The notes under the pieces are model-generated. The model saw only the letters and a list, made by a program, of their open reading frames with translations. It ran no database searches and was not told the DNA's origin. From a virus: 64,000 nt of DNA. Position numbers and translations under genes: made by a program. Shown here piece after piece: positions 33,750 through 57,829 of this stretch. The stretch spans positions 1 through 64,000 of IMG/VR virus record IMGVR_UViG_3300008954_003312; one strand, 5' to 3'. Each line of letters starts with the position of its first letter. The stretch's first letter is position 1.

Positions 33750-35288
33750 ATGCATAGAATCCTTACATGTAGTTCAGATACCTACATTACTAATAAGATT
33801 ATTAATAATAAATTCAGAGCAGAAGATGCCAATGTCGGCCAAGCAGGAACAATTGATATATTTAAACTTTATAATGAAAATTCTAGTGGGTCAATTACGG
33901 GAACTATTGAGGTCTCAAGGGGTCTGTTAAAGTTTGATCTAAATCCGCTTAGACAGCTTACGGGATCTTCTTTAGATACAAATCACTCATCTTTTAAATG
34001 TATGCTAAAGATGTATGATGTTTATGGTGGTCAAACTACTCCTTCAAGCTTTAAGCTAATAGTATTTCCGCTTTCTAAGTCTTTTGACGAAGGTATCGGC
34101 AGAGATATAGTTAATTTTTCTGATCTTGACTCTTCTAATTTTGTAACAGCATCAGTTATTGATGATACTGCAACGCTTTGGGAGCATACGGGTGCAGCCA
34201 AAGAGGGTCTGCTCGGGTCAAATGATCTCGATATTATATCTAGCGGAAATCTTTCTGATGGCAGTGGTGTTGTAAACATCTGGAAATCACAGACATTTTC
34301 AAAAGGAAACGAAGATCTTTCAATTGACATAACAACTATGGTATCTGCTACACTTGCTAGTCAAATACCGGACTGCGGGTTTAGAATCTCTTTTTCAGGC
34401 ACACAGGAGTCTGATGACAGGACAAGATTTGTTAAGAGGTTTGCTTCTAAGAATTCTACTAGATTTTCAAAAAGACCTAAGATAGTTGTGACCTACGATG
34501 ATTCAGTTCAAGACCATCATGGTGTATTCTTTTTTGATGTAACTGGGTCTATATTTTTAAATAACTTTCATAGAGGTAATCCTACAAATATACTTTCTGG
34601 AACAAGAAGAAGGGGAATATCTGGATCTAACTGCATAGTTTTTAAGATATTTTCTGGAGTTAATGGATCTGGATCTTACTTTGCTAAACAGCTATCAGCT
34701 TCTCAGCACCAAGTTGGTATTAATTTTATAACAGGTGTATACTCAGCAACATTTGCAATTTCAGAATTTGAGAGCTCTAGCCTAAGAGAGGAGATAAAAA
34801 GCGCTGGATCAGCTACATTTACTACAGTCTGGTCTTCTGTTGACGATACAGTCGGATATCATACTGGATCACTTGTAATTAATACAGTAAAAAGAACATC
34901 ATTTGAAAATTCTCCTCGCAGGCTTTTTATAAATGTAACAAATCTAAAGCCAACGTATGTATCTTCAGAGAAGTCTAGATTTAGAGTGTTTGTTCAGGAC
35001 GTTGCAAAGCAGATTGTTGCCTATAAGCTTCCATTTGAGACAGTAAGCGAAATATTCACAGACATGTACTATAGAATTAGAGACTTTGAGACAGATGATA
35101 TTATAGTTCCTTTTGACCCTGAGTCAAAAGGAACGCTTCTCTCTACAGATACCAAGGGAATGTATTTTGATTTTTATATGGACTCTTTGGCTCCAGGAAG
35201 AACTTATATATTTGACTTTTTAATAAAGGACGAAGGAACAGACCTGGTATTTTCAAATGTTGCTGCTAAGTTTGATATTACCAGGTAG
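33750..35288 (+). CDS. virion structural protein (DNRLRE-like N-terminal domain plus Ig-like C-terminus)
   Basis: DTYI, SRGLLKFD, GF.I, F.S......RPKIVV.YDD pattern; baseplate block context. Confidence 0.55.
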   Translation: MHRILTCSSDTYITNKIINNKFRAEDANVGQAGTIDIFKLYNENSSGSITGTIEVSRGLLKFDLNPLRQLTGSSLDTNHSSFKCMLKMYDVYGGQTTPSSFKLIVFPLSKSFDEGIGRDIVNFSDLDSSNFVTASVIDDTATLWEHTGAAKEGLLGSNDLDIISSGNLSDGSGVVNIWKSQTFSKGNEDLSIDITTMVSATLASQIPDCGFRISFSGTQESDDRTRFVKRFASKNSTRFSKRPKIVVTYDDSVQDHHGVFFFDVTGSIFLNNFHRGNPTNILSGTRRRGISGSNCIVFKIFSGVNGSGSYFAKQLSASQHQVGINFITGVYSATFAISEFESSSLREEIKSAGSATFTTVWSSVDDTVGYHTGSLVINTVKRTSFENSPRRLFINVTNLKPTYVSSEKSRFRVFVQDVAKQIVAYKLPFETVSEIFTDMYYRIRDFETDDIIVPFDPESKGTLLSTDTKGMYFDFYMDSLAPGRTYIFDFLIKDEGTDLVFSNVAAKFDITR

Positions 35289-35297
35289 GCGATTAGA

Positions 35298-38200
35298 ATG
35301 AAGAAGAAAAGAGTACTAAATCTTAGACAGCCTCATCTATTTAAGCCCTCTACTGTTAGAAGGACAGCTAAGCCAGGAGCTACTTTTAATAGAGATATAA
35401 AGCTTAGCAGTCTATCAAATACAAACATTGAAAGCACTTCTTCTTTTAGATACGACAATCCAGGCTCAGGGCTAAAGTCTACACAAGAAGTCTCAGTTGA
35501 CTATAGCAGATTTGAAAAACATACATTTTTTAACTCTGCTGTCTCAAAAGTAAATATTGCATTTGATAGAATTATTAATGAATTTCCTTTTGATGGAGCA
35601 GAAAGAGAAATAGAGGGATTTATTGACTCTTTGACAGGATATGAGAAGCACATTTTTGATACCTTTCCTAAAAACACAGGCTACCTTATATTTTCAGGAA
35701 CTGTGTCAGGTGAAGACTATCACGAAGGGACTTATCTTAAGGTAAATGATAAGGCAGGAACAAGTTATCCTGAATTTTCTAAAAATAGAACTGGAAATAG
35801 TGTTATAAATCCTGGATTAAGCACATTTTCTATTGAGATGCAAATATTTCCACCTGATATAGTCAATGACAATCAGGTCATATGTCAGATGCTAAGCGGG
35901 ACTAATGGTAGCTTCGGCGATGGCGGATTTACTTTGGGTCTATCATCCTCAACAAGCACAAGTGAATCAACTTTGATATTTGCTGTTGCTTCGGGAACAA
36001 CTCACCTTCATGCCACAGGAACTATTAACAAGGGACAGTGGAATCATATATGCGCTACTTTTAATAGATCTCCAGGCGCTGGAAATTTACTTCTTTACGC
36101 CAGCGGAAACCTAATAGCTTCATCTTCAGATTCTGCAGATGAAATGGGGACTCTATCTTTTAATTCACTTATGCCGCTCTATATCGGTTCTGGTTCTGCC
36201 CAAGATCTTTCTTTAGGCATGGAGAATCCTGCACATTCAGCTCAGACTCTCTGGACACCTCGTCAGACATTTTCTGGATCGATTGATGAGTTTAGATTTT
36301 TTCATAAGACAAGGAGTATTATTGATCAAAAAGAGACAGCTCTAAGTGAAATATATCCAGATGATGAAGGTTCACTGCGACTTTATTTTAGATTCAATGA
36401 GCCGTCTGGCTCTTATAGTATTCCAGATGTTGCTCTTGATAGCTCAGGAAACTCTCTTCATACTAATATTACAAATTTTGATTCTACTAATTCGAGACTG
36501 ACTGGGTCAAATACAGACTGGGGTGTTTGTATGACGGCTGAGAATAAATCGTTGTCACCAATTCTATTTCCATCTTTTAAAAATGTAAGGGGATTAAATG
36601 CAGATCTTTTACTCTCTGCTAGCTTGTTTGATGGTCAAAATCCAAATCTAATAACAAGACTAATACCTCCACATTATCTTGAAATGGGATCTGAGGACCA
36701 GGGATTTAATTCTATAACAGGAAGCATGGGAGATATGATTAAGCCCAATAGCATTCCGGGATCTTCTGTCATAGGATCACCTCAGATTATGACAGCATTC
36801 TTATTAATATGGGCAAAATATTTTGATGAGATAAAGATATTCATAGATCACTTTTCTAACTTAGTTCACATTGACTATGATGACATAGATACAGCAGCAG
36901 ATAAATTTTTACCTTTTGTTGCTAAATATTACGGATTTGAGCTTCCTGGAATTTTCTCTAACACTAGCCCAGAGCAATTTATTAAAGGTAGAAATATTGA
37001 CGGTTCTTACTCTATATCCGCTGAGTCTCTTAGATTTGTTCAAAATCAAATATGGAAGAGAATTTTAATAAACATTAGTGACATAAGGGCATCTAAGGGA
37101 ACAAAGCATTCTGTAGAATCAGTGTTTAGAGCTGCTGGAATTGATCCTGATTCATTTTTTACAATTAGAGAGTACGGAGGTCCGACTAAACGATCACTAG
37201 TTGGATTGCGACAGTCTAGAAAAGAAGTCTCAACAGCCTTAAGTTTTACGGGAAGTCTAGCACCGTGGCCAGAAGCGACTCTTGCGACAACATCTTCTGA
37301 TGGTCTCAATAGCTTAATGCCCATCCTTAGATCACCGTTTCTATCCGGATCCAGGGTTGAGGTAGGGTACCCTCTTGCCCGAGGTGGGTTTAATAATGCA
37401 AAATATGTTGCAGGAGAGATAGTTACCCACGGAACATCTACTGATAGGTCTGACGGATTATTTACATCTGGCTGCTTTACATACGAGGGAACTTATATAT
37501 TTCCAAGGCTTGTTACTGGCTCCTATCCAGTAAGTCAAAGTCTCGTTAGATTTCAAGTGACTGGGTCTGCTTCTCCTTCTGATAGAAACGGAGTTGTTGC
37601 AAACCTTATTGCAGTCTCTGGAGCTAATAACTCTCTTACAGGAAGCGGATCAGATTTAAAGCTATTTGTTAGACCTTCATATGCATCAACATCAGAGAAG
37701 ACACTTGAGATTGCTTTAACTGGTGCTAATATCTTTAACGGTGAGCAGTGGAATATTTCTTTTGGAAGAATTCGATCTGACTCACCTCAGCTTGATTTAG
37801 ATTCTGAAAATGCTGTCTCTTCATCGTATTTCCTTAGATGTGGGCATCAATCAGCTGGAGAGATTACTAGCGTCTATCAGACGTCTTCATTTTTTATGGA
37901 AGTTTCAAATAGGGGTGTAACAACTAATAAGAATGTATTCTCATCGAAAGTTACAACTTACAATGCCAGTGGTGTGTTTTTCGTAGTAGGCTCACAAAGT
38001 TTAGGAGATCCTACTGGAAACTACTTTTTAAACGATGAATCAGTAGCAGCTGACAGTGCAGCTCGTGTAACAGATTTTGCTGGTCGAATATCACGTATAA
38101 GATTCTGGTCCAAAGCACTTGAGTCAGGTGAGTGGAAAGAGCATGTAAGAAATTTTAAATCTCTTGGGGTCAAAGATCCACTAGTTAATTTTAATTTTAA

Positions 38201-39032
38201 CACTCTTTCATCTGGCTCATTCGAGAGGCTGCGGATTGATGCTACAACAGATCAGAGAGTTACAGCTTCAAATAGTCAAGGTGAGATAGAGATATTTGAT
38301 TTTTCAAAGAATAGCACAATAAACTCAGAAGGCTCTGCTGCACCGTGGATTGCAGCAGACCAGGCTGGCTCAGTTACATACTATCACCTTTCAGGAACAG
38401 GATTTGAAGCTGACAAGTCTGTGATAAGGCCTGAAGAATTTTATTATAGCTTTTTATCACCGAGATTTGATATCGGACAGACAGATGATAAAGTAAGAAT
38501 AAGAAGCTTTAAAGATGCTGATAAGATAAAGAATAGCAACTATGCAGGAAGTGCACCAGTCTACGAGGTCCCACCAAGCGAGCAGCCCGATGATGATACC
38601 AGGTTTAGCATTGACTACTCTGCTGTCAAAGCATTAGATGAAGATATAATGAATATTTTTTCATCTCTTGAGTTTTTTGATGATGCTCTTGGGCAGCCAA
38701 ATATGATGTTTGATGAATACTATCCCGATATTGATCAGGTAAGAAAAATTTATTTTAATAGGCTTATTGATAAGATAAATGTTAAAAAATTCTTTGAGAT
38801 ATTTAAATGGTTTGATACATCATTTACTGCCTTTATTGAGCAACTTATCCCTAGAAAGACAAAATTTCTAGGCATAAACTATGTTATAGAGTCTCATGTT
38901 CTTGAACGGCATAGACACAGATATTTATTTGATGAAATTTATCAACCAGCCGGCGAAAGAGAGCGGACATTTGATGTTGCTACACTTATTGATATCGATG
39001 TAACCATAGATGGACATGGAGGAGATTTGTGA
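35298..39032 (+). CDS. large baseplate/tail protein with two LamG (ConA-like) domains and a P2-gpI/gp7-like segment
   Basis: QWNHI.ATF, LYIG, FSGSIDEFRF, LY.RFNE; FLP.VAKYYG and KGT.HS motif; second LamG-like unit FAGRISRIRFWSKAL. Confidence 0.65.
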   Translation: MKKKRVLNLRQPHLFKPSTVRRTAKPGATFNRDIKLSSLSNTNIESTSSFRYDNPGSGLKSTQEVSVDYSRFEKHTFFNSAVSKVNIAFDRIINEFPFDGAEREIEGFIDSLTGYEKHIFDTFPKNTGYLIFSGTVSGEDYHEGTYLKVNDKAGTSYPEFSKNRTGNSVINPGLSTFSIEMQIFPPDIVNDNQVICQMLSGTNGSFGDGGFTLGLSSSTSTSESTLIFAVASGTTHLHATGTINKGQWNHICATFNRSPGAGNLLLYASGNLIASSSDSADEMGTLSFNSLMPLYIGSGSAQDLSLGMENPAHSAQTLWTPRQTFSGSIDEFRFFHKTRSIIDQKETALSEIYPDDEGSLRLYFRFNEPSGSYSIPDVALDSSGNSLHTNITNFDSTNSRLTGSNTDWGVCMTAENKSLSPILFPSFKNVRGLNADLLLSASLFDGQNPNLITRLIPPHYLEMGSEDQGFNSITGSMGDMIKPNSIPGSSVIGSPQIMTAFLLIWAKYFDEIKIFIDHFSNLVHIDYDDIDTAADKFLPFVAKYYGFELPGIFSNTSPEQFIKGRNIDGSYSISAESLRFVQNQIWKRILINISDIRASKGTKHSVESVFRAAGIDPDSFFTIREYGGPTKRSLVGLRQSRKEVSTALSFTGSLAPWPEATLATTSSDGLNSLMPILRSPFLSGSRVEVGYPLARGGFNNAKYVAGEIVTHGTSTDRSDGLFTSGCFTYEGTYIFPRLVTGSYPVSQSLVRFQVTGSASPSDRNGVVANLIAVSGANNSLTGSGSDLKLFVRPSYASTSEKTLEIALTGANIFNGEQWNISFGRIRSDSPQLDLDSENAVSSSYFLRCGHQSAGEITSVYQTSSFFMEVSNRGVTTNKNVFSSKVTTYNASGVFFVVGSQSLGDPTGNYFLNDESVAADSAARVTDFAGRISRIRFWSKALESGEWKEHVRNFKSLGVKDPLVNFNFNTLSSGSFERLRIDATTDQRVTASNSQGEIEIFDFSKNSTINSEGSAAPWIAADQAGSVTYYHLSGTGFEADKSVIRPEEFYYSFLSPRFDIGQTDDKVRIRSFKDADKIKNSNYAGSAPVYEVPPSEQPDDDTRFSIDYSAVKALDEDIMNIFSSLEFFDDALGQPNMMFDEYYPDIDQVRKIYFNRLIDKINVKKFFEIFKWFDTSFTAFIEQLIPRKTKFLGINYVIESHVLERHRHRYLFDEIYQPAGERERTFDVATLIDIDVTIDGHGGDL

Positions 39033-39922
39033 TGGCAATAAAACCCTTTGAAGATAGAGGCATTGTTGATCTTGGTAAGAATGTCAATAAGTACACTATA
39101 GGATCTCAAACCGGCTCTAGCGCAACTCAAACAACAGTTCTTGATAGACTGAGACAGGGAGTGAGCATTAGGAGTGTAAGCCAGCAATACAATAGAAACC
39201 TACCGATATTGAGAAGCGCTGACCCACCAACTTTCACTGATCGTCCAACTGTGCCATATCTTGAAAAGTGTAACTATGGACAGCCGAAGCATTTTAATGA
39301 TCCCTCACCAGATGGAACCCCGTCCCCCTTTGAAGATATTGTCGGAAGGTTTACTGGAAAGGAATACATAGAGGACGCTGGTGGGACACAGATATATCCG
39401 ATAATACTTCTCAATCCAACACTCAGGGACCCGGGTCAGATGGATGGTGTGATCGAACCTCTCGATATTAGAAATACAGTCGTTAATAGCTCACTAGGCG
39501 AGCCCTATATTTTCCATTCAGTCAAGGGTGCGCTCATGTCAGGTCACAGAGACCACAGTGCAAAAGGTGCAGAGGTCATGTCTCAAATTAGGTACTTTAA
39601 AAACTCAAAAAATATTGATTTTTTTGAGGATAACAGCGAGAGATCTTTAGGTAATGTGGCAGCACCTGGATTTGTTTCTAATTTTGAAACAAAGATAAAT
39701 CCATTTATAGACTCTCAGATTTCTACTAATCCGACTGCATCTTTTTCCTTTCTTTCTGGCTCGTACAGAGATAGAGGTAAATTTGGTGTAACGTATAAGT
39801 CTGCTCATTCTGGGTTTATATTTAATCCGTCAGGTGTAGGTAATACAGATGATGAAAATGGAAGAGTTGTGTCCACAGTTCTTGGGACAGATTCCATAGC
39901 ATTCGGAGGTCTAAAGAAGTAA
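39032..39922 (+). CDS. hypothetical virion protein
   Basis: GGAGG RBS, TGATG coupling, DGVIEPLDIR and GTDSIAFGGL segments. Confidence 0.55.
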   Translation: MAIKPFEDRGIVDLGKNVNKYTIGSQTGSSATQTTVLDRLRQGVSIRSVSQQYNRNLPILRSADPPTFTDRPTVPYLEKCNYGQPKHFNDPSPDGTPSPFEDIVGRFTGKEYIEDAGGTQIYPIILLNPTLRDPGQMDGVIEPLDIRNTVVNSSLGEPYIFHSVKGALMSGHRDHSAKGAEVMSQIRYFKNSKNIDFFEDNSERSLGNVAAPGFVSNFETKINPFIDSQISTNPTASFSFLSGSYRDRGKFGVTYKSAHSGFIFNPSGVGNTDDENGRVVSTVLGTDSIAFGGLKK

Positions 39923-42675
39923 TGCCAGTTTCAGGATCAGACGGAAAGCTTAGATCAGGATTTATATCACTACCTCCTCGTGTTGTTTTACGATTTTTTG
40001 ATAACATGACCGGCTCTTACCCCACAATTGCCAGAACAGGAGACAAGGACAGACTTGGAAACTTTAGGACTTACTTTGATGATACAGATACGATAGTATT
40101 TGGAAATAGTGAAAATTTTGAATATCCAACGCTTCTTCACTCTAGATCATTTGCTTATATTGGCAGAAGAGTTGCAACTCCTCACCCTAGAAGTAGCATA
40201 ACAACTGCAGCAACCGGTGCAGCCGGAGTCAGCGATTCTGGAATCTATATTCCTGTAAAGGGTCCGCTTGTTCCTGCTTCTTCATCTTTTGACACCTTTT
40301 CACCTTTTGATGAGAGCAGGATTTTTATAAACAGATCTTCAAACTTTTGGGCAACAGGCACCAAAGAAGAAGTTAAGCCAGGATTCTCTACACCCCTCTG
40401 GAGTAAGACTCAGATATCAATTGATATATCCCCTAGGGAAAGAACTAGATTGACAAGAGCATCAGGCCATCGGAATGATCGAGGTCCGTTTATGAGCCAG
40501 AGTTTTACAGGCTTTTGCTATTACAACTTTGTAGAAAAGAGATGGGAGGAAAAAGGAATACTTGACCCAGTGAGTGATGGCTCATCTTTACATAGGCTGC
40601 AAATGTTTGACTGGGCAGCTAGGATAAATGGAGCTGTTGGAACACTAACCTCCGGAACAAGCAACTATCCTTTGCAATTCTTTCCTAGCCCGCAAAGATG
40701 GCCAGACGCCAAAGCCGATCCATCAGCATTTGGGTATAGCCGCATAGGTACACCTACCTGTACAAGCTTTGCTCCATTTGCTACGAAATATCATGCTTCT
40801 GCTAGTCAGGTTCTAAAGATGTCTGACTATATCACCAGCCCATTTCTTCTTGAAAAAATAACGCTCCAGTTGCCGATTGAGGCTCAGAAGGCTTGGAATA
40901 CAAACTCTTCTCGTGCTAGAGACATGGACAATTATACGTTTTTTCTATATCGTCAGCAGAGAAAGCCAATTGTCTCAGGGTCAGGAAATTCCTATGGATC
41001 ACCGCCTGACTCAAAGGGAGCAATTACAGGATCTCAGAGATTTTTAATTGGTAGTGGCTGTATTTGCTTTTACAATACACACGTTGAAAATGAGAGTGGA
41101 CAGGTCGTAACACCTAATTTTCAACCTATTCACACACCTGCCTTTAAGCATGCGATGGGAGCACTAAGCCCTACAGCCACAGCAATTAATAGCTTTACTG
41201 GATCAATAATAGTTCCAATAGTTCCAGCAGTTGCTAATAGGTGCTATCATGGATTTTACTATGTTGAAGACTCTACTAATGGAAAGGGTGTCGGAGTGAC
41301 TGATAGAAAGGCATATGCTCAGATCTTTAATTACTGGCCAGGTGGAAATTCAACTGAGACATTTCATGGTAGAAATTATACAGGAAAGCATCCGGTTCAA
41401 ATTGCAGCCTATGGTGCTGCAACCATACCAGAGATTGGAATATCAACAGGAAAATTTTCCACTTCAATACAAAACTTTAAGGTTGAAAAATTTGATCCAA
41501 GATCTCATAGACCATTTGGTGCAGCTTCAAGCTCAAGCTTTGATAGCACATATTATGTTACAGTTGGAGGAAAACAGTCCATTGAATCTCCATATCTTTT
41601 GTTTCCAGAAGATGAGCTAATTTTAGGGATTGATGCAGGTCTTTCAAATAATGGAACACTTGATGGAACCTCAAAGAATGCATGGAATGAACTTACGGGT
41701 TCAATGCTGACAATGATCTCTAGTGGTTCAAAAATGACTCTATTTGGATCTATGATAAGAGACGGTGTTCAGTTTCATAACGGATTAAATCAAAACTTAA
41801 CTTCTAATGCAATACATGAGTCTCTTCACTATGACAATCCCACACTTGATCAGTTTAATATTGAGAGCAGAGAGTCATATATTGGAACTTACATAGACGA
41901 CGGAATCACAGGGTCCTTTACAGAAGCGGGTATTCATGCAAGGGGAGTAATGGGCAGTTTCGCTTCAGGCACTGCCGGACCGATGACTGGATCACTTTTG
42001 AGAGGCTTAAGGACGGCCGATTCCTCTGAAAGATATTACGATACTTTAATGCCCAGTATAGAATCTATTGGAAATTCGCTTGGTCTAACTAAGTATGCAA
42101 GGTATAATGGCTCTGCTTACCCAGTTATTAATTTTGCCACTGCAGCATTTAGAAGATCTATGCCATGGCCTTACGCTGAGGGAAGAGGCGATAATAGACA
42201 AATATCTGATAATATTGGAATTCTTTTATTGAATATTGATGGATCTGCTATGCTTTCACGAGCGACTTTTAGTCATAAGCCCGTTAGAAGAATATTATTT
42301 TCAAAATATAAGTTTCTTGATCCAGAGAATGGATTGACTGCTACCTCTAGATACCAGTCAAGTGCTAATGTAACAGGCGCACTATCTTTTAACTATGGTA
42401 TCTATAATATAGATCCAAAAAATTCATCAGCTGTTTTTAGATATGATAGATACGGCCAGTTTAGAGATATGCTTGAGCAAAGACAGGACTCTAAGTTCTA
42501 TAAGCCCTTTACAGTCAGCAAGGATGGCAGATCAATATCTAAGAGAGCAATTGCCCAGTCACCAGTTTTTATAAAGTTTGTCAGTAGATCATCAGAAATA
42601 GAAATAAGCCCGTATGAGACATCACTCTTCAATAAGAGTATTGAATCCACATCTTCATATCCGTACTCTGGATAG
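39922..42675 (+). CDS. large S/T/G-rich hypothetical virion protein
   Basis: 917 aa ORF, TAATG coupling, C-terminal FRYDRYGQFRDMLEQR block. Confidence 0.55.
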   Translation: MPVSGSDGKLRSGFISLPPRVVLRFFDNMTGSYPTIARTGDKDRLGNFRTYFDDTDTIVFGNSENFEYPTLLHSRSFAYIGRRVATPHPRSSITTAATGAAGVSDSGIYIPVKGPLVPASSSFDTFSPFDESRIFINRSSNFWATGTKEEVKPGFSTPLWSKTQISIDISPRERTRLTRASGHRNDRGPFMSQSFTGFCYYNFVEKRWEEKGILDPVSDGSSLHRLQMFDWAARINGAVGTLTSGTSNYPLQFFPSPQRWPDAKADPSAFGYSRIGTPTCTSFAPFATKYHASASQVLKMSDYITSPFLLEKITLQLPIEAQKAWNTNSSRARDMDNYTFFLYRQQRKPIVSGSGNSYGSPPDSKGAITGSQRFLIGSGCICFYNTHVENESGQVVTPNFQPIHTPAFKHAMGALSPTATAINSFTGSIIVPIVPAVANRCYHGFYYVEDSTNGKGVGVTDRKAYAQIFNYWPGGNSTETFHGRNYTGKHPVQIAAYGAATIPEIGISTGKFSTSIQNFKVEKFDPRSHRPFGAASSSSFDSTYYVTVGGKQSIESPYLLFPEDELILGIDAGLSNNGTLDGTSKNAWNELTGSMLTMISSGSKMTLFGSMIRDGVQFHNGLNQNLTSNAIHESLHYDNPTLDQFNIESRESYIGTYIDDGITGSFTEAGIHARGVMGSFASGTAGPMTGSLLRGLRTADSSERYYDTLMPSIESIGNSLGLTKYARYNGSAYPVINFATAAFRRSMPWPYAEGRGDNRQISDNIGILLLNIDGSAMLSRATFSHKPVRRILFSKYKFLDPENGLTATSRYQSSANVTGALSFNYGIYNIDPKNSSAVFRYDRYGQFRDMLEQRQDSKFYKPFTVSKDGRSISKRAIAQSPVFIKFVSRSSEIEISPYETSLFNKSIESTSSYPYSG

Positions 42676-42687
42676 TTTGAGTTTGTA

Positions 42688-42694: not shown

Positions 42695-42718
42695 TATTTG
42701 TAAAGATAAGAAAATAAA

Positions 42719-43687
42719 ATGGCCGGAATCCTAGATAAGAAAACAAGAATAATGGATAACATTATAACGCTTGCTGGAAAAAAACAAATGGCATCCGGCA
42801 GATTGCGATTTGAATTTATTTCATTCACAGATTCTGATACTTTTTACAAAGGCGATATCGTTAGTGGGTCAGCTGATGCTTCAAAGAGAATTTTCTTTGA
42901 AGCGACAAGTAAAAATCAAGACTCTATTACATTTGAAACTGATGATTCAGGAAAGCTAATTCCAAATAGCAGAATTTATGAAGGCGCATCCCTTACAACT
43001 GATGCAATTTTTTCAAAAACCACTTCAACAGAAAAATATGGAGACTATGTATATACTTCAGGTTCTGGAGATTTTGCTAGCTTATCTGGCGGAATAATTA
43101 CTGGATCTTTGGATAATTTTAAAAATCTTAGAATGCTTGGGACCAGGCTAGGAAAAGATGCTTTTAAAAATCTAAGACTTTCTACAACTGAGCTTTACTA
43201 TGAGATGACATCAGATGTTCCTTTCCCAGGAGGTACCGGTGAGGAAATAAACATAGATGCTGTCGAACCTCTCTTTATAGATAAGCGTCTTTCTCATATT
43301 GATAATTTTAAATTTCTACCCCCAGTCTTTCCGCCTGTTCCTGGATTTGATGACGGTGGTGAGCTTGGAGAATATATTAATCTAAATGAAAATGATGAGC
43401 TAACATATTCAGAAATATTGTCTGACCTATCAGACAAAGAGGCTTTTTCTATTGATTTTGAATCCACATCTGATGCTAACAATATTGTTATGCAAATGTT
43501 TGAAACAGGAAATGGAAAATTTATAAAGCTTGATGTTATAGACTTTGGAGAAGTTTACCATTCTCCGCTCACTCACGGTCTCTCTGAGGGCAGCAGCCAA
43601 AAGAGAATCTTTTTTATTGGAAAGGTTTTTCTTGATTCTCTAAAGATGCCGACATTTGTTAACTTATTTACAATGGTAATAGACTAA
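42719..43687 (+). CDS. virion protein, paralogous N-terminus to 53055..53756
   Basis: MAGILDKK...D.IIT..GKK.MA.G......SF.D....Y...FEA resembles MGFLDNS...DAVLT..GRE.LA......FALGD...Y...FEA. Confidence 0.55.
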   Translation: MAGILDKKTRIMDNIITLAGKKQMASGRLRFEFISFTDSDTFYKGDIVSGSADASKRIFFEATSKNQDSITFETDDSGKLIPNSRIYEGASLTTDAIFSKTTSTEKYGDYVYTSGSGDFASLSGGIITGSLDNFKNLRMLGTRLGKDAFKNLRLSTTELYYEMTSDVPFPGGTGEEINIDAVEPLFIDKRLSHIDNFKFLPPVFPPVPGFDDGGELGEYINLNENDELTYSEILSDLSDKEAFSIDFESTSDANNIVMQMFETGNGKFIKLDVIDFGEVYHSPLTHGLSEGSSQKRIFFIGKVFLDSLKMPTFVNLFTMVID

Positions 43688-50300: not shown

Positions 50301-50945
50301 CTTAGATCAGATGATCAATCTGTTACACACATATTCGCTAATATGCTAAGTGCTATGACAATATTTGACCCACTTATATTTGACGATATAGGTTCCCCAT
50401 CTACTTTTGAAACAGATCTCATTAAATGGGATGGAGAAAGCGTAAGTCTATCGCCTTCCGGAGAGATAGTTTTACAAAATCACTTTTTTGATTATTACCT
50501 CAAGATGTATCTTAGGATTGTTCTTGGAATTGATGTCTTTGAGGATTCTTTTCCTTTTAATGAGTCCGAGACAATATCTTCAACCTGCGATGCAGACAAG
50601 CAAGAGATTTTTAACTCCTTTGAGGAGGGCTTAGTGACTCTATATGCTAGCTCGGATGAGCTCGCTGAAGATTCTCAGGAGCTAGAGTTCAATAAGACAA
50701 GATCAGTCATTGCACAGTCTACAATCTTCAGCTCTATTAAGTACAGAAACAGGGTGTTGTTTTCAAGAATATTTGATAGAGTTTTCTGTATATACGTTGA
50801 TATTGATGATTTTGAGCTAGAGAGCGGAGAAGCTGATACATCTGAAAGTGTTCCATCTTTTTATCAGCTATATACAACCTATGAGATTGTTCCAGCAATT
50901 GGAGATGCCCCTGATCGATCAGGCAGTGAAGAGCAGGGCATGTGA
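47340..50945 (+). CDS. large acidic hypothetical virion protein
   Basis: 1201 aa ORF, AGGAG RBS, D/E/S-rich, mostly helical; C-terminal ILVVGIP and FDRVF blocks. Confidence 0.55.
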   Translation: MAVKTSFDDALIDDSLAGESFDNEIQSLIAENSVLRADTDQVLDNLTNILSSINAILNSLNIKFGSYITSSSLVDEMYSNLGVDEELYTNASDSLTLQEYFTQVMGFSEEKIGYMSCTAMFIQLLNDLRNSISTCSPGLVTADGSSSDYTQHGERDAAFTDRTGTSVAGVEHTYSERVIGNLKSHLVQSPSGLYDGLSRVSAVIEGIFESGQWQTGGSPSIGSESGESSVSDIQEGLSDIGDDPTGIAAYLLYVTRDFIKHVSLQSTGIRSALKSYISVTDNTTIEEIHTAVFGDTGGESGKRILGYGLETTEGASGQPETAIYSDIIMQSWSSEMKSSESTNPVNYLPFDRYSLITADSAYLPAIQIFINHMLTESGTSGSTLLNPRRFVAFSNRISKKISNITTYVKNIILARGASEYNSAKLFEICVKKFQGVLESRYTGSGEEINKTDLTRMFILLLAEKDEDVDNALLDFLLIRSTFKRKWSSGTGYPTAEGKENDTSLLGSDERFRAGVASITDDSITWSDLETAYYTAAATLANAVRESAAFGALHSSGGTVPAGTEIFDDLAIVKRTFSSADPFREGGIDIGEDDSSALQNDLEYDSIIRAIAYDHGEGNDLFDILWVCVNAFQSAIMNRYQTLSGFDSPIENGDILTYQSDEINRYGRETAVYIFFKKFLSETIRITFNRGVDNEYNEEPSGADAHGDNEPAYYTFREGVFIFLSNVILESYESIDSVSQNLDYWESEWLGGGEGQIEGDRSELLSAATDRASYLGSIYSSLVNEDAKCINLLHYLNSISDEMASASNQVQTMVGLLPTPGFNVSDDVLAFLKQHPQGQNMLLTLTRDSLMTSKYLHKGFQDHRQYDYQVAIKNFDAEQISNMVQALSNDLSSYLPNVGIQYDFVPSASQDRKKILVVGIPAGVAEYLRYKGAWLGNDSRYLDSTYLKITVYRRNLQDDSETSIPKEFYFDMSSYLLEGLAGVDDSASLRSDDQSVTHIFANMLSAMTIFDPLIFDDIGSPSTFETDLIKWDGESVSLSPSGEIVLQNHFFDYYLKMYLRIVLGIDVFEDSFPFNESETISSTCDADKQEIFNSFEEGLVTLYASSDELAEDSQELEFNKTRSVIAQSTIFSSIKYRNRVLFSRIFDRVFCIYVDIDDFELESGEADTSESVPSFYQLYTTYEIVPAIGDAPDRSGSEEQGM

Positions 50946-51017
50946 TGAAAATTATCAATTGGATATTACGAGAGGGTTTTATGATTTATTTTTATTTATT
51001 AACTAGAGGGGCTAGCG

Positions 51018-52949: not shown

Positions 52950-52994
52950 AAGGAATTTAATATTTTTAGTCTAAAAGATAAGTTAATGGCTATA

Positions 52995-53003
52995 ATATTT
53001 AAT
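52995..53003 (+). promoter_or_regulatory. candidate late promoter ATATTTAAT
   Basis: In the 105-nt AT-rich gap before 53055; variant ATAATTA at 53032-53038. Confidence 0.45.
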
Positions 53004-53054
53004 CTAGGTTAACTTTAAATTTTATAAATCTATAATTAGATGTAGGAGGAAAAA

Positions 53055-53756
53055 ATGGGATTCTTAGACAATTCTACAAATAACATTATTATTGATGCTG
53101 TTTTAACAAATCTCGGTAGAGAGTTCTTAGCTAGAAACGATGGATCTTTTTCTATTTCAAAGTTTGCGCTAGGAGATGATGAAGTAGATTACTCAATAAT
53201 TCAAAAATTTGGTAGAACAGTTGGTGTTGAAAAAATTGAGAAGAATACACCAATATTTGAGGCACTAACCTCAGGAAATCAAGCAATCAAGAGCAAGCTA
53301 GTCAGTGCAAGCGATCCCACACTCACGAGGCTTCCAAGCATTGTTATTACTGGGCCAGATGCAAATAACACTGTTGAGCTTACAAGGACAACGACAGCCT
53401 CTTCGACAACCAATGAAAAGACGCTAATTGTTGAACAGTCACAATCAGGAGGGGGTACAGTTCCCACAGACTTGCAGGATCCTGCAATACTTCTTGAATG
53501 TAATAACTTATTTGTAAGTGTCAAGGGAAAAGTTCCAGAATCTATAAATTCTGATAATATAGCTACATACCTTATAGTCAAGAATCCTACTACACTTTCT
53601 GGAAATAGATCACAGTTTACACTAACGATATCTGCTAAGAATGTTTCATCTTCTTTGTTTAATGCATACGGAGATGATTCAACCGTTATTTTACCGGTTA
53701 CAGTAACCGGAATTTCATCTGGTGCTAGCAGCACGTTTACTGTACAGATTACATGA
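53055..53756 (+). CDS. tail/baseplate protein with a tail-collar-fibre-like (DUF3751-type) N-terminus
   Basis: LT..GRE.LA.......I.KFALGD motif; strong AGGAGG RBS; Ig-like C-terminus. Confidence 0.6.
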   Translation: MGFLDNSTNNIIIDAVLTNLGREFLARNDGSFSISKFALGDDEVDYSIIQKFGRTVGVEKIEKNTPIFEALTSGNQAIKSKLVSASDPTLTRLPSIVITGPDANNTVELTRTTTASSTTNEKTLIVEQSQSGGGTVPTDLQDPAILLECNNLFVSVKGKVPESINSDNIATYLIVKNPTTLSGNRSQFTLTISAKNVSSSLFNAYGDDSTVILPVTVTGISSGASSTFTVQIT

Positions 53757-53775
53757 TAATTGGAGTTAATAAAAA

Positions 53776-55041
53776 TTGGGTACCTATAAATCTATAAGCG
53801 CAGCTGATATTAAGACAAGCAGATCTTCTTTAAATCAGCTTGTTGATATTATTCAAGAGGACATTTCAGGCTCTGTAACAAGAAAGACATTTCAGGTTTT
53901 TGTCACAGGAGGTGTCGCCTCCTGTCCCGGTGTGACGTCTTCTCAGTACCACACTGTCTTTGATCAAAATTACAGTTTCCAGACTGCTAATGAAATTTGT
54001 GACATGACTATCGGACTTTGGGAATCTGGGTCTACAGTCGCGAGCTGTAGCACAGGAGAAGATAGCGCCGGTAAGCTTCTATTCACATCAGAGACGCTGA
54101 TGATGAGAGAAAAAGTGGACCTCTACAGGCAATACTCTCAGACTCTCTTAGGCTCTGACACTGTTTTCCAGATTCCGTATAAGGGAAGCAGTCAGAAGAA
54201 TATCGATAATGCAATGTTTATTAACTTTAAGAGACTTTTTGCTCGAGATGCTATTAAGAAAGAGACATTTGCTATGCGAATGTATGCCACAGCGGTCATT
54301 GATTTTAATGACACGACAACAAGAGGGGGTAGCACAGCAGGAACACCTTATTCAAATCTCGATAGAACCACAACTACAGGCAGCAAGATCTGGACAGATG
54401 TAGGTGCTTCAAGCTTGACACATGTAGCCTATGGTGGCACAGTTGCAAATATTGTTGACTCTGCAGATACAAGCAACTATGGCGGACTGATATTCTATGA
54501 TCAGGGAATAATTGTCATGGATCTTGAAAGGTGCATATCAGGATCTCAGCATGTTTCAGGTGTTATAAGCAGCATGTCTCCTAATTCTCGTGCTGATGCA
54601 GCAGCAGGTCAATCTATAATTGGAAGCGGGACATCTGACACAGCTACAGATCCAAACTACAGGGCTACATTTATTCCCTCGCTTATGAGATGTGGATCAA
54701 TAGACGATATTGTTAATCATCTTGCATCTTGTAGATTCCAGTCAGGGTCTTTAACAGCCATAACATTTCAAAATGTTACAGAGATCAACTCTACGCTGAT
54801 ATTCTGTCGTGCAACAGCAGATGAGTTTAATTACTCAGGAAATCCAACATTTACTGATGCTGATGATAGGCTAGTTGTAATTGATACCGGGGAAGAAAGC
54901 ACACAGAGAACATTTAGCTTTATTACCTCTGTAGGTCTTTATGATAATAATAATAACCTGCTAGCTGTCGCAAAGCTGTCTAGGCCAGTTCAGAAAAGCG
55001 ATGAGAAGGATCTGACAGTCAGAATCAGGCTAGACTTCTAA
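53776..55041 (+). CDS. tail/baseplate protein
   Basis: C-terminal EFNYS.NPTF...FITSVGLYD....LLAVAKLSRP..K......RIRLDF; TTG start after GGAG. Confidence 0.6.
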   Translation: MGTYKSISAADIKTSRSSLNQLVDIIQEDISGSVTRKTFQVFVTGGVASCPGVTSSQYHTVFDQNYSFQTANEICDMTIGLWESGSTVASCSTGEDSAGKLLFTSETLMMREKVDLYRQYSQTLLGSDTVFQIPYKGSSQKNIDNAMFINFKRLFARDAIKKETFAMRMYATAVIDFNDTTTRGGSTAGTPYSNLDRTTTTGSKIWTDVGASSLTHVAYGGTVANIVDSADTSNYGGLIFYDQGIIVMDLERCISGSQHVSGVISSMSPNSRADAAAGQSIIGSGTSDTATDPNYRATFIPSLMRCGSIDDIVNHLASCRFQSGSLTAITFQNVTEINSTLIFCRATADEFNYSGNPTFTDADDRLVVIDTGEESTQRTFSFITSVGLYDNNNNLLAVAKLSRPVQKSDEKDLTVRIRLDF

Positions 55042-55051
55042 AGGAGACATC

Positions 55052-57829
55052 ATGTCTCTAATAAAGATCTTACCAGAATATCTTGAGACCTTTACCCTAA
55101 CACTACACCCTAACAGGAGGTTTGTTTCTTCTTCTGCGGAGGGTGTAACGACTGGTTCACTGTCGCTATCAGCGAGACCTAGCACATCTGTAAAGAGCAT
55201 AGTTAAGATGTCAACCGGATCTGACACGTCTGGCTTTGAGGGCTCAGTCTTTGATTTATCAAACTACTACCCTAGCAATATACTCGAAAGTGTAAATAGG
55301 GATTATTTAGATAATTACAGAGACTCATCGTGGGATGGAACAGCTAGCTATACATCTAATATGGTCGCATATTTATCAGGTGTTCATGAGACGACTGGGT
55401 CTCATAGAAACGCTAGGACATTTGAAATCACTAGATTTGATGCTCCTTTTGAACTATCTAAAGAGAATGGTGTTAAGAACTTTGTTAGAAACGGTCTAAT
55501 GTCATCATATAGATCAAGATATACCGGTTGTGACTTTACCTATACAAATTATAGCTCATTAAACTTTTTTACCTCTTCTGACGTTCCTTCAGGCTCAGCA
55601 CTAATTTATCCAAACTTTAGCGGTGCAACACCAGGTCTTCTTCCCGTTGGAAGCAGTGAAGTTGCCGAGAGGGGTTACGGTCTTCAGCAACCCAGGCCTT
55701 ACACACCCTATAAGGGATTTACTCTTCAGTTTTACATAAATCCAAGGTATACAACTGATGATCCAGTTCAGCACGGAGGGGCTAGCAGCCCGACTTCAGG
55801 AAGTGTCTTTAGAGCTGGAACTATTATGCACCTATCTTCAACTTTTGCTGTCTCTCTTGTGACTGGGAGTGGAGTTGATGAAAGCGGATATCCCAATGGA
55901 TACCGAATCATGCTTCAGTTAAGTCATAGTTGTGACACTAAGCCCTCTGATGTTGATCTAAGCATAACAAACAGCAGAAGAGATGTTCCAAATGATCTGA
56001 TCTTTCTATCAGATGATAATGTCCTGACAAGAAATCACTGGCATCATGTCTCTATACGATGGGATGCTGCGACTAATAATAGAGGCACAGGATCTTTTTA
56101 TGTGGACGGATCAGAGAGAGGCAGCTTTGCTGTTCAGTCTGCTTCAATTGCTGCAACAGAACCGTTTAAGTCTCGACCTAGCGGAAATGATCCAAGGATT
56201 ACATGGGGATCAGATGCTCTTGTGATTGGAAACTTTTTTGAGGGATCACACATCGGTCAGCTTTTTAACGGACCTGCTACTGGTAGTGAGGGATGTGCGA
56301 GAAAGGTTTTTTCTGATGGAGCCGACAATCCCTATCACAGCAGCATTGATCCTGCTGTGGGATTCCATCACCCATTAAATGCTGAGATCCACGAGGTGCA
56401 GATCTGGAAGAGGTCCCTGGCAAATGACGAGGTAAGCACTTTAATGAAAAAAGGTGTCGGATCTATAGACGCACCGTGGTCTGAGAATAACTTTTCAACA
56501 AATAAAGCCTCTCTCATAGCTCATAATGATCTTTGCTTTTATCTTCCTCCTTTCTTTGTCAAGGAGTCCAATCCCAGAAAAGTTACTGCGACACCTTTCC
56601 TATTTTCTGAAGGGACAAACGGATTTTCTGCTGTAGACCTCGACGGCGGCCAGACTCTGGGAACATTCTCTTCTACAACTACTTCACAGACAGATACACC
56701 ATTTCATCTAACAGCATCACTTTCTGTTGGAGGACACATTGTTAGTCTTGAGAACTATGTTAGAGACTTTGTTACCGGGTACTATCCTAGACTTTTTCAC
56801 CTAACAGCAACTATTATTGACACAGCTGGATTTACAGCTAGCCCTAGCAGTTATATCAAGCTAGATCCCGACGGAGAAAAGTGGAGTGCTAATAGATATT
56901 TTTATTCTCAGATGTTTGGAGCATCTGGGTCCCAGATAGCAAAGAGAAATTTAACTATCTTGCCAAACGATAATGGAAAGTTTCAACCTAACTTTGATCT
57001 TCTTGAAACTGGATCCGGCTATGGTCTTTCTAATGAACCTGACAGCATCTTTAAGACTTCACTGGGTGCAATTGATAGATCGATTGTAAGTCTCAATGAG
57101 ATGATATTGACAGGTGCCCTGGGCACTCCGCCTCTTCCTGGTGATTTTGATGTTGATGACAAGAGCTTTATGACAGACATCTGCGGAGCAGCTCCCTCTT
57201 CTGGCTCAACAATAACCCCTCCTGATTCTTGTAACATTAGTAGAAATTACATACATTATTTCTCTGTCTATAATCAAATAAGAGATCCTAGTTCTAATCA
57301 GCTTACATTTTTTAATATTCCAAATCTGTACTATGGTCAAAGAATATTGCCTGAAACATTTAAGATAATTGACCCTAGCATGACTGGATCTGGAGGAAAG
57401 GTCAAGATCACCCTTAAGGACAATGGAAAAGGGGGACTCTATAGAGCAGACTGTACAGGATCTCACCCTACTTGGTCAAATGTTGGAAATGTTTTTTATG
57501 AAGAGGGCGTTGCGATTATTAAATCTCCAAATCTTCCCTTGTTTGCAACAGGAGCATTTGAGACATCCTTCCAGGGAGAGCAGAGTACACATGTTTTGAC
57601 AATCAATGCTCCCTGTGAAACTGGAATGTTTATGTCATCTTCTAACCCATCGTTCAAAGTTCTATCAGCTTCCCTTGATCCGAATGAATACGACCCTGAG
57701 TTTGTATACATTACGGGCTTTAATCTTCATGATGATAATCTTAATGTTATTGGAAGGTCAAATCTTGCTCAGCCCTTAATCAAGAGGTCTAGCGATGAAT
57801 TTCTTTTTAAATTTAAAATGGATTTTTAA
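55052..57829 (+). CDS. tail/baseplate protein with a LamG domain; C-terminus paralogous to 53776..55041
   Basis: WHHVSIRW, YVDG, LVIG, EIHEVQIW; C-terminal SSNPSF...YITGFNLHDDNLNVIG..NLAQP..KR....FK.KMDF. Confidence 0.62.
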   Translation: MSLIKILPEYLETFTLTLHPNRRFVSSSAEGVTTGSLSLSARPSTSVKSIVKMSTGSDTSGFEGSVFDLSNYYPSNILESVNRDYLDNYRDSSWDGTASYTSNMVAYLSGVHETTGSHRNARTFEITRFDAPFELSKENGVKNFVRNGLMSSYRSRYTGCDFTYTNYSSLNFFTSSDVPSGSALIYPNFSGATPGLLPVGSSEVAERGYGLQQPRPYTPYKGFTLQFYINPRYTTDDPVQHGGASSPTSGSVFRAGTIMHLSSTFAVSLVTGSGVDESGYPNGYRIMLQLSHSCDTKPSDVDLSITNSRRDVPNDLIFLSDDNVLTRNHWHHVSIRWDAATNNRGTGSFYVDGSERGSFAVQSASIAATEPFKSRPSGNDPRITWGSDALVIGNFFEGSHIGQLFNGPATGSEGCARKVFSDGADNPYHSSIDPAVGFHHPLNAEIHEVQIWKRSLANDEVSTLMKKGVGSIDAPWSENNFSTNKASLIAHNDLCFYLPPFFVKESNPRKVTATPFLFSEGTNGFSAVDLDGGQTLGTFSSTTTSQTDTPFHLTASLSVGGHIVSLENYVRDFVTGYYPRLFHLTATIIDTAGFTASPSSYIKLDPDGEKWSANRYFYSQMFGASGSQIAKRNLTILPNDNGKFQPNFDLLETGSGYGLSNEPDSIFKTSLGAIDRSIVSLNEMILTGALGTPPLPGDFDVDDKSFMTDICGAAPSSGSTITPPDSCNISRNYIHYFSVYNQIRDPSSNQLTFFNIPNLYYGQRILPETFKIIDPSMTGSGGKVKITLKDNGKGGLYRADCTGSHPTWSNVGNVFYEEGVAIIKSPNLPLFATGAFETSFQGEQSTHVLTINAPCETGMFMSSSNPSFKVLSASLDPNEYDPEFVYITGFNLHDDNLNVIGRSNLAQPLIKRSSDEFLFKFKMDF

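What the first reader, a model, noticed from the sequence alone, without database searches (positions are those of the whole stretch)
33750..57829. Recurring [S/T]-G-S tripeptide in a specific subset of tail/baseplate proteins: candidate O-glycosylation sequon
Seen (approximate hand counts of TGS/SGS): 6 in 33750 (512 aa), 12 in 35298 (1244), 2 in 39032, 9 in 39922 (917), 3 in 42719, 5 in 53776 and 13 in 55052 (925). That is about 50 in about 4600 aa, often as hydrophobic-TGS (ITGS, VTGS, LTGS, FTGS, MTGS), with related SGT/SAS/TAS variants. By contrast I find about 5 in all enzymes of the first 28 kb, none in the gp5-like, gp6-like and FN3 proteins, and only about 3 in the similarly Ser-rich 1201-aa protein. 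The sites are dispersed in otherwise unrelated sequence with varied codons, so this is not a DNA repeat. Inference: a short motif repeatedly gained in unrelated proteins beside a large GT locus looks like an enzyme recognition signal marking surface loops for glycosylation.
Basis: partly seen in the sequence, partly recalled or inferred. Interest (0 to 1): 0.88.

Follow-up and report, generated by a model that had tools for sequence, protein, structure and literature searches.

The report
Ser/Thr-Gly-Ser tag on phage tails
The outer tail, baseplate and fibre proteins of this uncultured marine jumbo phage and its whole clade carry the ordered tripeptide Ser/Thr-Gly-Ser five to six times more often than chance. 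It behaves like a tag read by a phage factor, most plausibly a conserved pair of sugar-transferases, but no chemistry shows a sugar there yet.

Summary
[ST]GS occurs 6, 12, 2, 9, 3, 5 and 13 times in the seven named proteins: 50 seen against about 9 expected. TGS and SGS are the two most enriched of all 8000 tripeptides there, and nothing comparable appears in the other structural proteins or the enzymes. Permuted tripeptides, block shuffles and a dipeptide model all leave the excess standing, and the codons vary. The excess is kept in the same orthologues of hundreds of relatives, including cultured Flavobacterium phage immuto, Microcystis phage Mel-JY01 and Rhodothermus phage RM378. It is absent from T4. 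The proteins that carry it share no detectable homology. In the one family common to all these phages, the tail sheath, the motif follows the genome rather than the fold. That points to a factor acting in trans. The GT4 pair at 25600-28024 is conserved and syntenic across the clade. The one relative with a weak or absent excess (LR756508) lacks GT4b. Glycosylation is therefore the best reading (about 0.45), but it is circumstantial. Most sites are old, with an invariant Gly at strand edges, so a purely structural turn motif remains a strong rival. The large sugar island next door is not conserved across the lineage. This scan has reported the same motif before on other DNA (at least 24 genomes).

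The parts
33750..35288 (+). 512-aa protein directly after the gp6-like baseplate protein; 6 [ST]GS sites against 0.98 expected
   Evidence: p 0.0005. Orthologues are also enriched in G004 (7 against 1.08) and G001 (5 against 0.81).
35298..39032 (+). 1244-aa LamG-domain tail/baseplate protein; 12 sites against 2.3 expected
   Evidence: Laminin_G_3, E 1.3e-12. Orthologues: 13 against 1.73 in G004, 10 against 1.17 in G001, 8 against 2.51 in G003.
39029..39922 (+). 297-aa protein; 2 sites against 0.49 expected, not significant alone
   Evidence: p 0.07.
39922..42675 (+). 917-aa tail protein; 9 sites against 2.0 expected
   Evidence: p 0.0005. Partial orthologues are enriched in G004 (12 against 2.69), G001 (8 against 1.83) and G003 (8 against 2.18).
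42719..43687 (+). 322-aa protein; 3 sites against 0.49 expected
   Evidence: p 0.01. The G003 orthologue has 3 against 0.24.
53776..55041 (+). 421-aa tail protein; 5 sites against 0.84 expected, four of them positionally conserved
   Evidence: 70 orthologues give O/E 5.7. Alignment A2 has S31-G32-S33 invariant. In the AlphaFold model (pLDDT 73.9) all five sites lie in loops or at element ends.
55052..57829 (+). 925-aa LamG-domain tail protein; 13 sites against 2.1 expected, five of them conserved across the family
   Evidence: 120 homologues hold 871 sites against 141 expected. Conserved sites lie at residues 34, 271, 346, about 626 and 778. AlphaFold model, pLDDT 68.8.
25600..26844 (+). GT4a: GT4-family glycosyltransferase with an intact EX7E motif; candidate writer of the tag
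   Evidence: Pfam Glycos_transf_1, E 2.3e-14. EX7E present. 50-60% identical in five 189-324 kb relatives. Among 50,697 phage records it hits only immuto, Mel-JY01, LR756508 and RM378.
26861..28024 (+). GT4b: second GT4-family glycosyltransferase with an intact EX7E motif, always next to GT4a
   Evidence: 42-53% identical and adjacent in G001-G005. Present in immuto, Mel-JY01, RM378 and G009. Not found in LR756508. It is one of only 6 of 34 shared genes missing from LR756508.
372..24748 (+). Variable sugar-building island, the likely donor supply; not conserved across the lineage
   Evidence: GT2 and GT4 genes, three or four epimerase/dehydratases, methyltransferases, a carbamoyltransferase, a PseB-like dehydratase, radical SAM/SPASM, a CMP-sugar cytidylyltransferase, an aminotransferase, NeuB, a formyltransferase, PIG-L, GNAT and UDP-glucose dehydrogenase. 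G004 matches this island only weakly.

Best explanation
[ST]-G-S, usually preceded by a hydrophobic residue, is a short linear tag kept by selection in the outward-facing tail parts of a large phage clade. Those parts are the proteins after gp6, the fibres or spikes and, in relatives, the sheath. The clade runs from Rhodothermus phage RM378 through Flavobacterium phage immuto and Microcystis phage Mel-JY01 to these marine jumbo phages. The tag is read in trans by a phage-encoded factor. The most likely reader is the conserved GT4a/GT4b pair, which would put a first sugar on a hydroxyl of the tag in the cytoplasm. Variable sugar islands, here including a nonulosonic-acid pathway, would then extend it into a lineage-specific glycan coat on the tail. 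What is shown: the excess, its conservation, its restriction to particular proteins and genomes, and the co-inheritance of the GT4 pair. What is inferred: that the tag is modified at all, that the modification is a sugar, and that the GT4 pair writes it.
For: (1) The excess survives every composition control. (2) It is inherited by orthologues. 120 homologues of w55052 have O/E 3-11. In 80 related loci, w53776 orthologues have O/E 5.7 and w55052 orthologues 6.1, their neighbours 0.5-1.2, and all other ORFs 300 against 326. In 49 further loci, proteins downstream of gp6 have 750 against 128.5, while gp6 and upstream have 70 against 67. (3) In near-complete genomes only a handful of ORFs are enriched, mostly the tail set: G004 103 against 21.8 in 8 of 317 ORFs, and likewise G001, G003 and G009. 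(4) Cultured relatives show it: immuto 52 against 11.2, Mel-JY01 45 against 5.9, an RM378 cluster 21 against 3.8. T4 gp7-12 and gp34-37 have 7 against 7.5. (5) The carriers are not paralogues. Profile-profile comparison links only w53776 and w55052, through a C-terminal domain of about 90 aa that holds no site. (6) Within one homologous family, the tail sheath, genomes with the GT4 pair have 31 against 9.1 (p 1e-8). LR756508 and T4 have 0 against 1.6 (P 0.005 at the positive rate). (7) The GT4 pair is as conserved as core genes, and the order PD-(D/E)XK nuclease, GT4a, GT4b, w28327 holds in G001-G005. The 6 phage records that tblastn with the gp6-like protein finds are all among the 7 that GT4a finds. 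(8) LR756508 sits with immuto and Mel-JY01 in the gp6 tree. It has no GT4b and no genome-wide excess: TGS 43 against 28-52 for the permutations. GT4b is the only transferase among the 6 genes with that distribution. (9) Immuto DNA contains only dA, dC, dT and fdPreQ1 (PMC10516641). This argues against DNA as the sugar acceptor in that relative. (10) The clade infects hosts of three phyla yet keeps the pair, which suggests a phage-encoded acceptor (inference). (11) 17 of the 18 sites in the two AlphaFold models lie in coil or at the ends of strands and helices (one is inside a helix), and several of them fall in low-confidence loops.
Against: No chemistry exists. Most of the excess comes from old sites with an invariant Gly inside well-conserved blocks next to hydrophobic strands. 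Structural constraint would look the same. Rare positions are only about 1.5 times more common than for permuted controls. Co-occurrence with the GT4 pair is essentially one clade and so one event. The single negative, LR756508, has low power: 5 against 2.1 in its post-gp6 ORFs, where the lowest of 49 positive loci has O/E 2.3. Its distal tail proteins are also largely different proteins. It still carries a GT4a-like gene. Exposure could not be computed. GT4 enzymes have many kinds of acceptor, and sequence gives no hint of a protein acceptor.
Confidence: 0.45

Rival explanations
1. The motif is purely structural. Phi-[ST]-G-S-Phi is a preferred tight turn or strand cap in the beta-rich outer tail proteins of this clade. 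From my own knowledge of turn statistics, Gly followed by Ser, Thr or Asn is the classic type II' two-residue hairpin. It would be kept for folding or packing, with no modification.
For: Gly is invariant at the conserved sites, and both flanks tolerate only Ser/Thr exchange. Sites sit at strand starts and ends or between strands. Hydrophobic residues are enriched at -1 and +3. Most of the excess is ancient and positionally conserved. Two sites in 35298 fall on positions where I recall the LamG_3 consensus already having a Gly (own reading).
Against: NG and DG turns are not enriched, and SGT and TGT much less so, so the motif is directional and very specific. T4 outer baseplate and fibres show none. 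It recurs in six or more unrelated families yet is missing from inner baseplate proteins of similar composition. In sheath homologues it follows the genome rather than the fold. Several lineage-specific sites lie in low-confidence insertions.
Confidence: 0.3
2. The tag is read by a different trans-acting factor. This could be another modifying enzyme (kinase, acyl or other transferase), or an assembly factor or chaperone. Most of these phages encode GroEL. As I recall it, the E. coli GroES mobile loop reads IVLTGS.
For: The genome-level behaviour needs a trans factor but does not name it. GroEL is present in G001-G004 and immuto. Five other genes share GT4b's distribution, among them an AAA_5 ATPase and two unknown proteins in the morphogenesis region.
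Against: RM378 has an enriched cluster but no GroEL. No kinase or other protein-modifying enzyme was recognised among the co-distributed genes. Proteins of 900-2400 aa are too large for the GroEL cage (own knowledge).
Confidence: 0.15
3. Hidden paralogy: the carriers are built from copies of one small, fast-evolving domain that holds a TGS at a fixed place, so the motif was inherited rather than gained repeatedly.
For: Tail proteins evolve by domain shuffling (own knowledge). Site spacings of 20-30 and 60-70 residues are over-represented in the window. w53776 and w55052 share a C-terminal domain.
Against: All-against-all hhalign finds no other relation, and the shared domain holds no site. No extended sequence pattern surrounds the sites. 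The spacing peaks are not reproduced in G004, immuto or Mel-JY01. The profiles were shallow (4 sequences), so sensitivity is limited.
Confidence: 0.05
4. The excess is a composition or counting artefact.
For: The carriers are rich in Ser, Thr and Gly.
Against: Equally Ser-rich neighbours show no excess. Permutation, block-shuffle and dipeptide controls all fail to explain it. It replicates in hundreds of independent sequences.
Confidence: 0.01

Closest known systems
Virion O-glycosylation of mycobacteriophages by phage-encoded glycosyltransferases (Freeman et al. 2023, PMC10527164; known to me through the citation in PMC12619734, and my own knowledge)
   Same: The phage carries its own glycosyltransferases, and structural proteins would be the acceptors in the cytoplasm before or during assembly.
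   Different: In the mycobacteriophages the glycans sit on the C-termini of the capsid and tail-tube subunits, and I know of no short sequon reported for them. Here the candidates are dispersed [ST]GS sites in outer baseplate, fibre and sheath proteins, and nothing has been shown chemically.
GtfA/GtfB O-GlcNAc transferase of serine-rich-repeat adhesins in Gram-positive bacteria (own knowledge)
   Same: Two adjacent GT-B/GT4-type genes act in the cytoplasm on Ser/Thr of a secreted or structural protein.
   Different: As I recall, GtfB lacks catalytic residues and its substrates are low-complexity Ser-rich repeats. Here both proteins keep EX7E, and the sites are single tripeptides in folded proteins. 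No specific sequence similarity was found.
General O-glycosylation of Bacteroidota with the three-residue sequon D-(S/T)-(A/I/L/V/M/T) (own knowledge)
   Same: A three-residue O-glycosylation sequon marks many unrelated proteins, and Bacteroidota are likely hosts of much of this clade (immuto; PMC12619734).
   Different: That system is periplasmic, uses a lipid-linked glycan and belongs to the host. The motif here is different, the proteins assemble in the cytoplasm, and the clade also infects a cyanobacterium.
Flagellin O-glycosylation with pseudaminic or legionaminic acids (own knowledge)
   Same: Ser/Thr sites on an exposed filament are glycosylated with a preference for nearby hydrophobic residues. 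The window encodes NeuB, a PseB-like dehydratase, an aminotransferase, a GNAT and a CMP-sugar synthetase.
   Different: No strict sequon is known for flagellins. No Maf-type transferase was recognised here by Pfam, and the nonulosonic-acid genes are not conserved in relatives.
Virus-encoded glycosylation of chlorovirus and mimivirus structural proteins (own knowledge)
   Same: Large viral gene sets build unusual glycans and attach them to virion proteins independently of the host machinery, at non-canonical sites. GT4a has a weak hit to the PBCV-1 protein B736L (3oy2, E 5.5e-4).
   Different: Those are eukaryotic viruses, and the glycans I recall for chlorovirus are N-linked. The similarity is generic to GT4.

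Membership tests
Protein O-glycosylation sequon | The Ser/Thr of the motif carries a glycan in the mature protein | not testable with these tools
   No proteomic or glycan data exist for this phage or its cultured relatives in the library searched.
Protein O-glycosylation sequon | The motif is over-represented in the substrate set beyond composition and absent from non-substrates | tested here: met
   replicated.
Protein O-glycosylation sequon | The sites are solvent-exposed in the assembled particle | tested here: inconclusive
   17 of 18 sites lie in coil or at the ends of strands and helices, and several are in low-pLDDT loops. No coordinates or assembly model were available, so accessibility was not computed.
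Protein O-glycosylation sequon | The motif co-occurs with the transferase, and is lost when the transferase is lost | tested here: inconclusive
   The GT4 pair is present in all 8 enriched genomes checked. T4 shows no excess and was not among GT4a's tblastn hits; GT4b was not searched in T4. LR756508 lacks GT4b and shows a weak or absent excess. The positives form one clade and the one internal negative has low power.
Protein O-glycosylation sequon | The transferase recognises the motif-bearing protein | not testable with these tools
   Enzyme-acceptor recognition needs an in vitro or co-expression assay; see Tried and rejected for the one computational attempt.
GT4 retaining glycosyltransferases (the 25600/26861 pair) | GT-B C-terminal domain with the EX7E motif | tested here: met
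   Pfam Glycos_transf_1 and Glyco_trans_1_4 are above cut-off for both proteins. The EGFGL...LEA motif is present in both.
GtfA/GtfB-type two-component protein O-glycosyltransferase | One catalytic GT4 subunit plus one non-catalytic GT-B partner that binds the substrate | tested here: not met
   Both proteins keep EX7E, and there is no specific similarity to GtfA or GtfB among solved structures. This lowers the membership claim, not the analogy.
DNA-glycosylating phage transferases | Glycosylated bases in virion DNA | tested here: not met
   Only for a cultured relative, from the literature: immuto DNA holds dA, dC, dT and fdPreQ1 (PMC10516641). Not tested for this phage itself.

The most novel reading that the evidence does not exclude
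A clade-wide, phage-autonomous cytoplasmic system of protein O-glycosylation with a defined three-residue sequon, [ST]-G-S. A conserved pair of GT4 enzymes would write it onto the outer tail, baseplate, fibre and sheath proteins. Interchangeable sugar islands, here including nonulosonic acids, would diversify it. The system would be conserved from a thermophilic Rhodothermus phage to marine jumbo phages infecting at least three bacterial phyla.
Probability: 0.4. Interest if true: 0.85.

Novelty: new variant of a known kind. Interest (0 to 1): 0.72.

Why it matters
If the tag is a glycosylation sequon, it would be the first short, predictable sequon for phage virion glycosylation that I know of. 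It would show that a widespread aquatic phage clade coats its host-recognition apparatus with self-made glycans. Hundreds of relatives appear in public metagenomes and three in culture. The idea is directly testable in Flavobacterium phage immuto and Microcystis phage Mel-JY01. It would also bear on adsorption, on particle stability, and on why large phages carry sugar islands of 25-50 kb. A portable tag-and-writer pair could serve for glyco-engineering. If the motif is structural instead, it is still an unusually sharp, convergent sequence signature of outer tail proteins and could help annotate them.

Tried and rejected
- **DNA-level explanation.** The codons at the 50 sites vary and there is no common nucleotide word.
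- **Generic turn propensity.** NG and DG triplets are not enriched.
- **Annotation of the carriers.** PHROGs gave no hit for any of the seven carriers. Pfam found only LamG_3 in two of them.
- **Close relatives.** tblastn of w55052 against 50,697 phage records found nothing, and a single-protein scan of IMG/VR found nothing either. An alignment query was needed.
- **Fold searches.** Foldseek on w55052 found only the LamG/pentraxin jelly roll. On w53776 it found nothing at E<=0.001. VIA-align wide gave only weak matches (Z 4.6 or less, about 70 residues) to small domains of phage tail proteins.
- **Complex prediction.** GT4a + GT4b + residues 296-421 of w53776 gave no verdict (score 0.00, controls not run). 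This is no evidence either way.
- **Periodic spacing.** Peaks at 20-30 and 60-70 residues in the window were not reproduced in G004, immuto or Mel-JY01, so I dropped the idea.
- **Hidden paralogy.** Rejected at hhalign sensitivity.
- **Repeated recent gain as the main driver.** Rare positions are only about 1.5 times more common than for permuted controls.
- **T4-type late promoter.** TATAAATA gave 5 matches against 7.3 expected, with none placed to time the GT4 pair.
- **GroEL-binding mimicry.** RM378 lacks GroEL but has an enriched cluster, so I kept this only as a minor rival.
- **More negative lineages.** Of 24 further records, only one was complete, and it was positive. The rest were fragments in which absence means nothing.
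- **Literature.** No paper was found on a TGS motif with glycosylation, on Mel-JY01, or on glycosylated phage tail fibres of this clade.

Full report
**What the window is.** The window is the first 64 kb of a 76-kb IMG/VR virus record that CheckV rates 15% complete, so the phage is very large. All large ORFs run on the + strand.

- Bases 1-24.7 kb form a sugar-building island. It holds GT2 and GT4 transferases, three or four NDP-sugar epimerase/dehydratases, methyltransferases and a carbamoyltransferase. It also holds a nonulosonic-acid set: a PseB-like dehydratase, a class-III aminotransferase, NeuB, a CMP-sugar cytidylyltransferase, a GNAT, a formyltransferase, PIG-L and a radical SAM/SPASM protein.
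- Next come a PD-(D/E)XK nuclease (24754), two GT4 genes (25600 and 26861) and a tail/baseplate module from 28.3 to 57.8 kb. The module includes a gp6-like Baseplate_J protein at 31882.
- The window ends with a primase, an SbcCD-like fusion and a T4-type large terminase.

- TGS (27 against 3.6) and SGS (23 against 5.5) are the two most enriched of all 8000 tripeptides in these seven proteins. Nothing comparable occurs in the other 5004 aa of structural proteins or in 11268 aa of enzymes.
- The order of the residues matters. Every permutation of T, G, S or of S, G, S is at background.
- NG and DG turns are not enriched.
- Shuffles that keep local composition give z about 13, and a dipeptide model still leaves 50 against 28.
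- Codons vary.
- The only context signal is a hydrophobic residue at -1 and a milder one at +3.

**It is inherited, and it is specific to certain proteins.**

- All 120 homologues of the 925-aa protein (37-86% identity, from marine metagenomes) are enriched, 871 against 141. Five sites are positionally conserved, with an invariant Gly and only Ser/Thr exchange on either side.
- In 80 related IMG/VR loci, orthologues of w53776 and w55052 have O/E 5.7 and 6.1. Their neighbours have 0.5-1.2, and all other ORFs have 300 against 326.
- In the 281-kb relative G004, only 8 of 317 ORFs reach p<0.01. They are the orthologues of 33750, 35298, 39922 and 55052, three further giant proteins, and a 1062-aa tail sheath.
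- G001, G003 and the complete 197-kb G009 behave alike.
- In 49 more distant loci, proteins downstream of gp6 have 750 against 128.5, while gp6 and the genes upstream have 70 against 67.

**Cultured relatives and controls.**

- tblastn with the gp6-like protein and with GT4a finds almost the same small set among 50,697 phage records: the gp6-like protein finds Flavobacterium phage immuto, Microcystis phage Mel-JY01 and the 484-kb uncultured LR756508, and GT4a finds these plus Rhodothermus phage RM378.
- Immuto tail proteins have 52 against 11.2, one tail spike alone 26 against 5.9. Mel-JY01 has 45 against 5.9. An RM378 cluster has 21 against 3.8.
- T4 gp7-12 and gp34-37 have 7 against 7.5. The motif is therefore not a general property of myovirus baseplates and fibres.

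**It is not hidden paralogy.** BLAST and profile-profile comparison relate only w53776 and w55052, through a C-terminal domain of about 90 aa that contains no site. No extended pattern surrounds the sites. A spacing signal in the window did not replicate in relatives.

**The motif follows the genome, not the fold.** Tail-sheath homologues exist in all these phages. In genomes with the GT4 pair they hold 31 [ST]GS against 9.1 expected (p 1e-8). In LR756508 and T4 they hold 0 against 1.6, which has probability 0.005 at the positive rate. Together with the convergence across unrelated families, this argues for a factor acting in trans.

**The candidate factor.**

- GT4a and GT4b both keep the EX7E motif.
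- They are 50-60% and 42-53% identical in relatives whose tail proteins are about 35% identical.
- They keep the order nuclease, GT4a, GT4b, w28327 in G001-G005.
- The pair is also present in immuto, Mel-JY01, RM378 and G009.
- The large island next to it is not conserved; G004 carries different sugar genes there.
- LR756508 groups with immuto and Mel-JY01 in the gp6 tree. It has a GT4a-like gene but no GT4b and no genome-wide TGS or SGS excess.
- Of the 34 G004 genes shared with G001, G003 and Mel-JY01, six are missing from LR756508. GT4b is the only transferase among them.
- This negative is weak. LR756508's post-gp6 ORFs have 5 against 2.1, and the lowest of 49 positive loci has O/E 2.3. 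Its distal tail proteins are also mostly different proteins.
- Immuto DNA holds only dA, dC, dT and fdPreQ1 (PMC10516641). This argues against DNA as the acceptor of these sugars in that relative.

**Structure.** AlphaFold models of w55052 (pLDDT 68.8) and w53776 (pLDDT 73.9) place 17 of 18 sites in coil or at the first or last residues of strands and helices. Several lineage-specific sites fall in low-confidence loops. Accessibility could not be computed because no coordinates were available.

**What weighs against the sequon reading.**

- Most of the excess is old and positionally conserved, next to hydrophobic strands.
- Rare positions exceed permuted controls only about 1.5-fold.
- Gly followed by Ser is a classic tight-turn pair (own knowledge).
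- The positive genomes form one clade, so co-occurrence amounts to about one event.
- No chemistry exists.

**Verdict.** My weights are: glycosylation tag about 0.45, structural motif about 0.30, another trans factor about 0.15. A published lineage of aquatic jumbo phages, the "moraphages" with four core glycosyltransferase groups (PMC12619734), may overlap this clade, but I did not test that. Earlier reports of this scan describe the same motif in at least 24 other genomes and reach similar conclusions. I read them only after my own analyses were done.

Noticed in passing
window 31359-31367, 52995-53003, 58375-58383, 62894-62902 (also 12564, 39818): The word ATATTTAAT occurs six times, always on the + strand. 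Four copies lie in the tiny intergenic gaps 10-30 bases upstream of genes 31386, 53055, 58403 and 62923. It is a candidate phage promoter element. A partial copy (TAATATTTCC) lies upstream of GT4a.
   Followed up: partly
window 15153-23872: This stretch holds an apparently complete nonulosonic-acid (pseudaminic/legionaminic-like) pathway: a PseB-like dehydratase, aminotransferase, NeuB, CMP-sugar synthetase, GNAT, formyltransferase and PIG-L deacetylase, plus a radical SAM/SPASM enzyme. That is unusual cargo for a phage, and it is not conserved in the 281-kb relative G004.
   Followed up: partly
window 28327-29058: The gene that always follows the GT4 pair in G001-G005 has a weak match to late sigma transcription factors (phrog_234, E 0.005).
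   Followed up: no
G004 116849-123134; G001 137055-143240; G003 65116-71822 and 262399-265743: The jumbo relatives carry two or three paralogous tail-sheath genes of about 1000-1175 aa each, far longer than T4 gp18 (659 aa).
   Followed up: no
window 54757-55041 and 57560-57829: The 421-aa and 925-aa proteins share a C-terminal domain of about 90 aa (hhalign probability 96.8%). It gives weak structural matches to small domains of other phage tail proteins.
   Followed up: partly
window 58403-59359 and its orthologues in L002-L081: Orthologues of the DnaG-like primase have [ST]GS O/E 3.5 (43 against 12.3). This is probably one conserved site and not part of the tail phenomenon.
   Followed up: no
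Mel-JY01 (PP395634) 635-4591: Two proteins at the start of the record also have many [ST]GS: 37 against 19 expected in one rich in Ser, Thr and Gly (high expected count), and 13 against 2.5 in the other. Their identity was not examined.
   Followed up: no
window 59471-62608: A single 1045-aa ORF fuses an SbcD-like Metallophos nuclease domain to an SbcC/Rad50-like ATPase.
   Followed up: no
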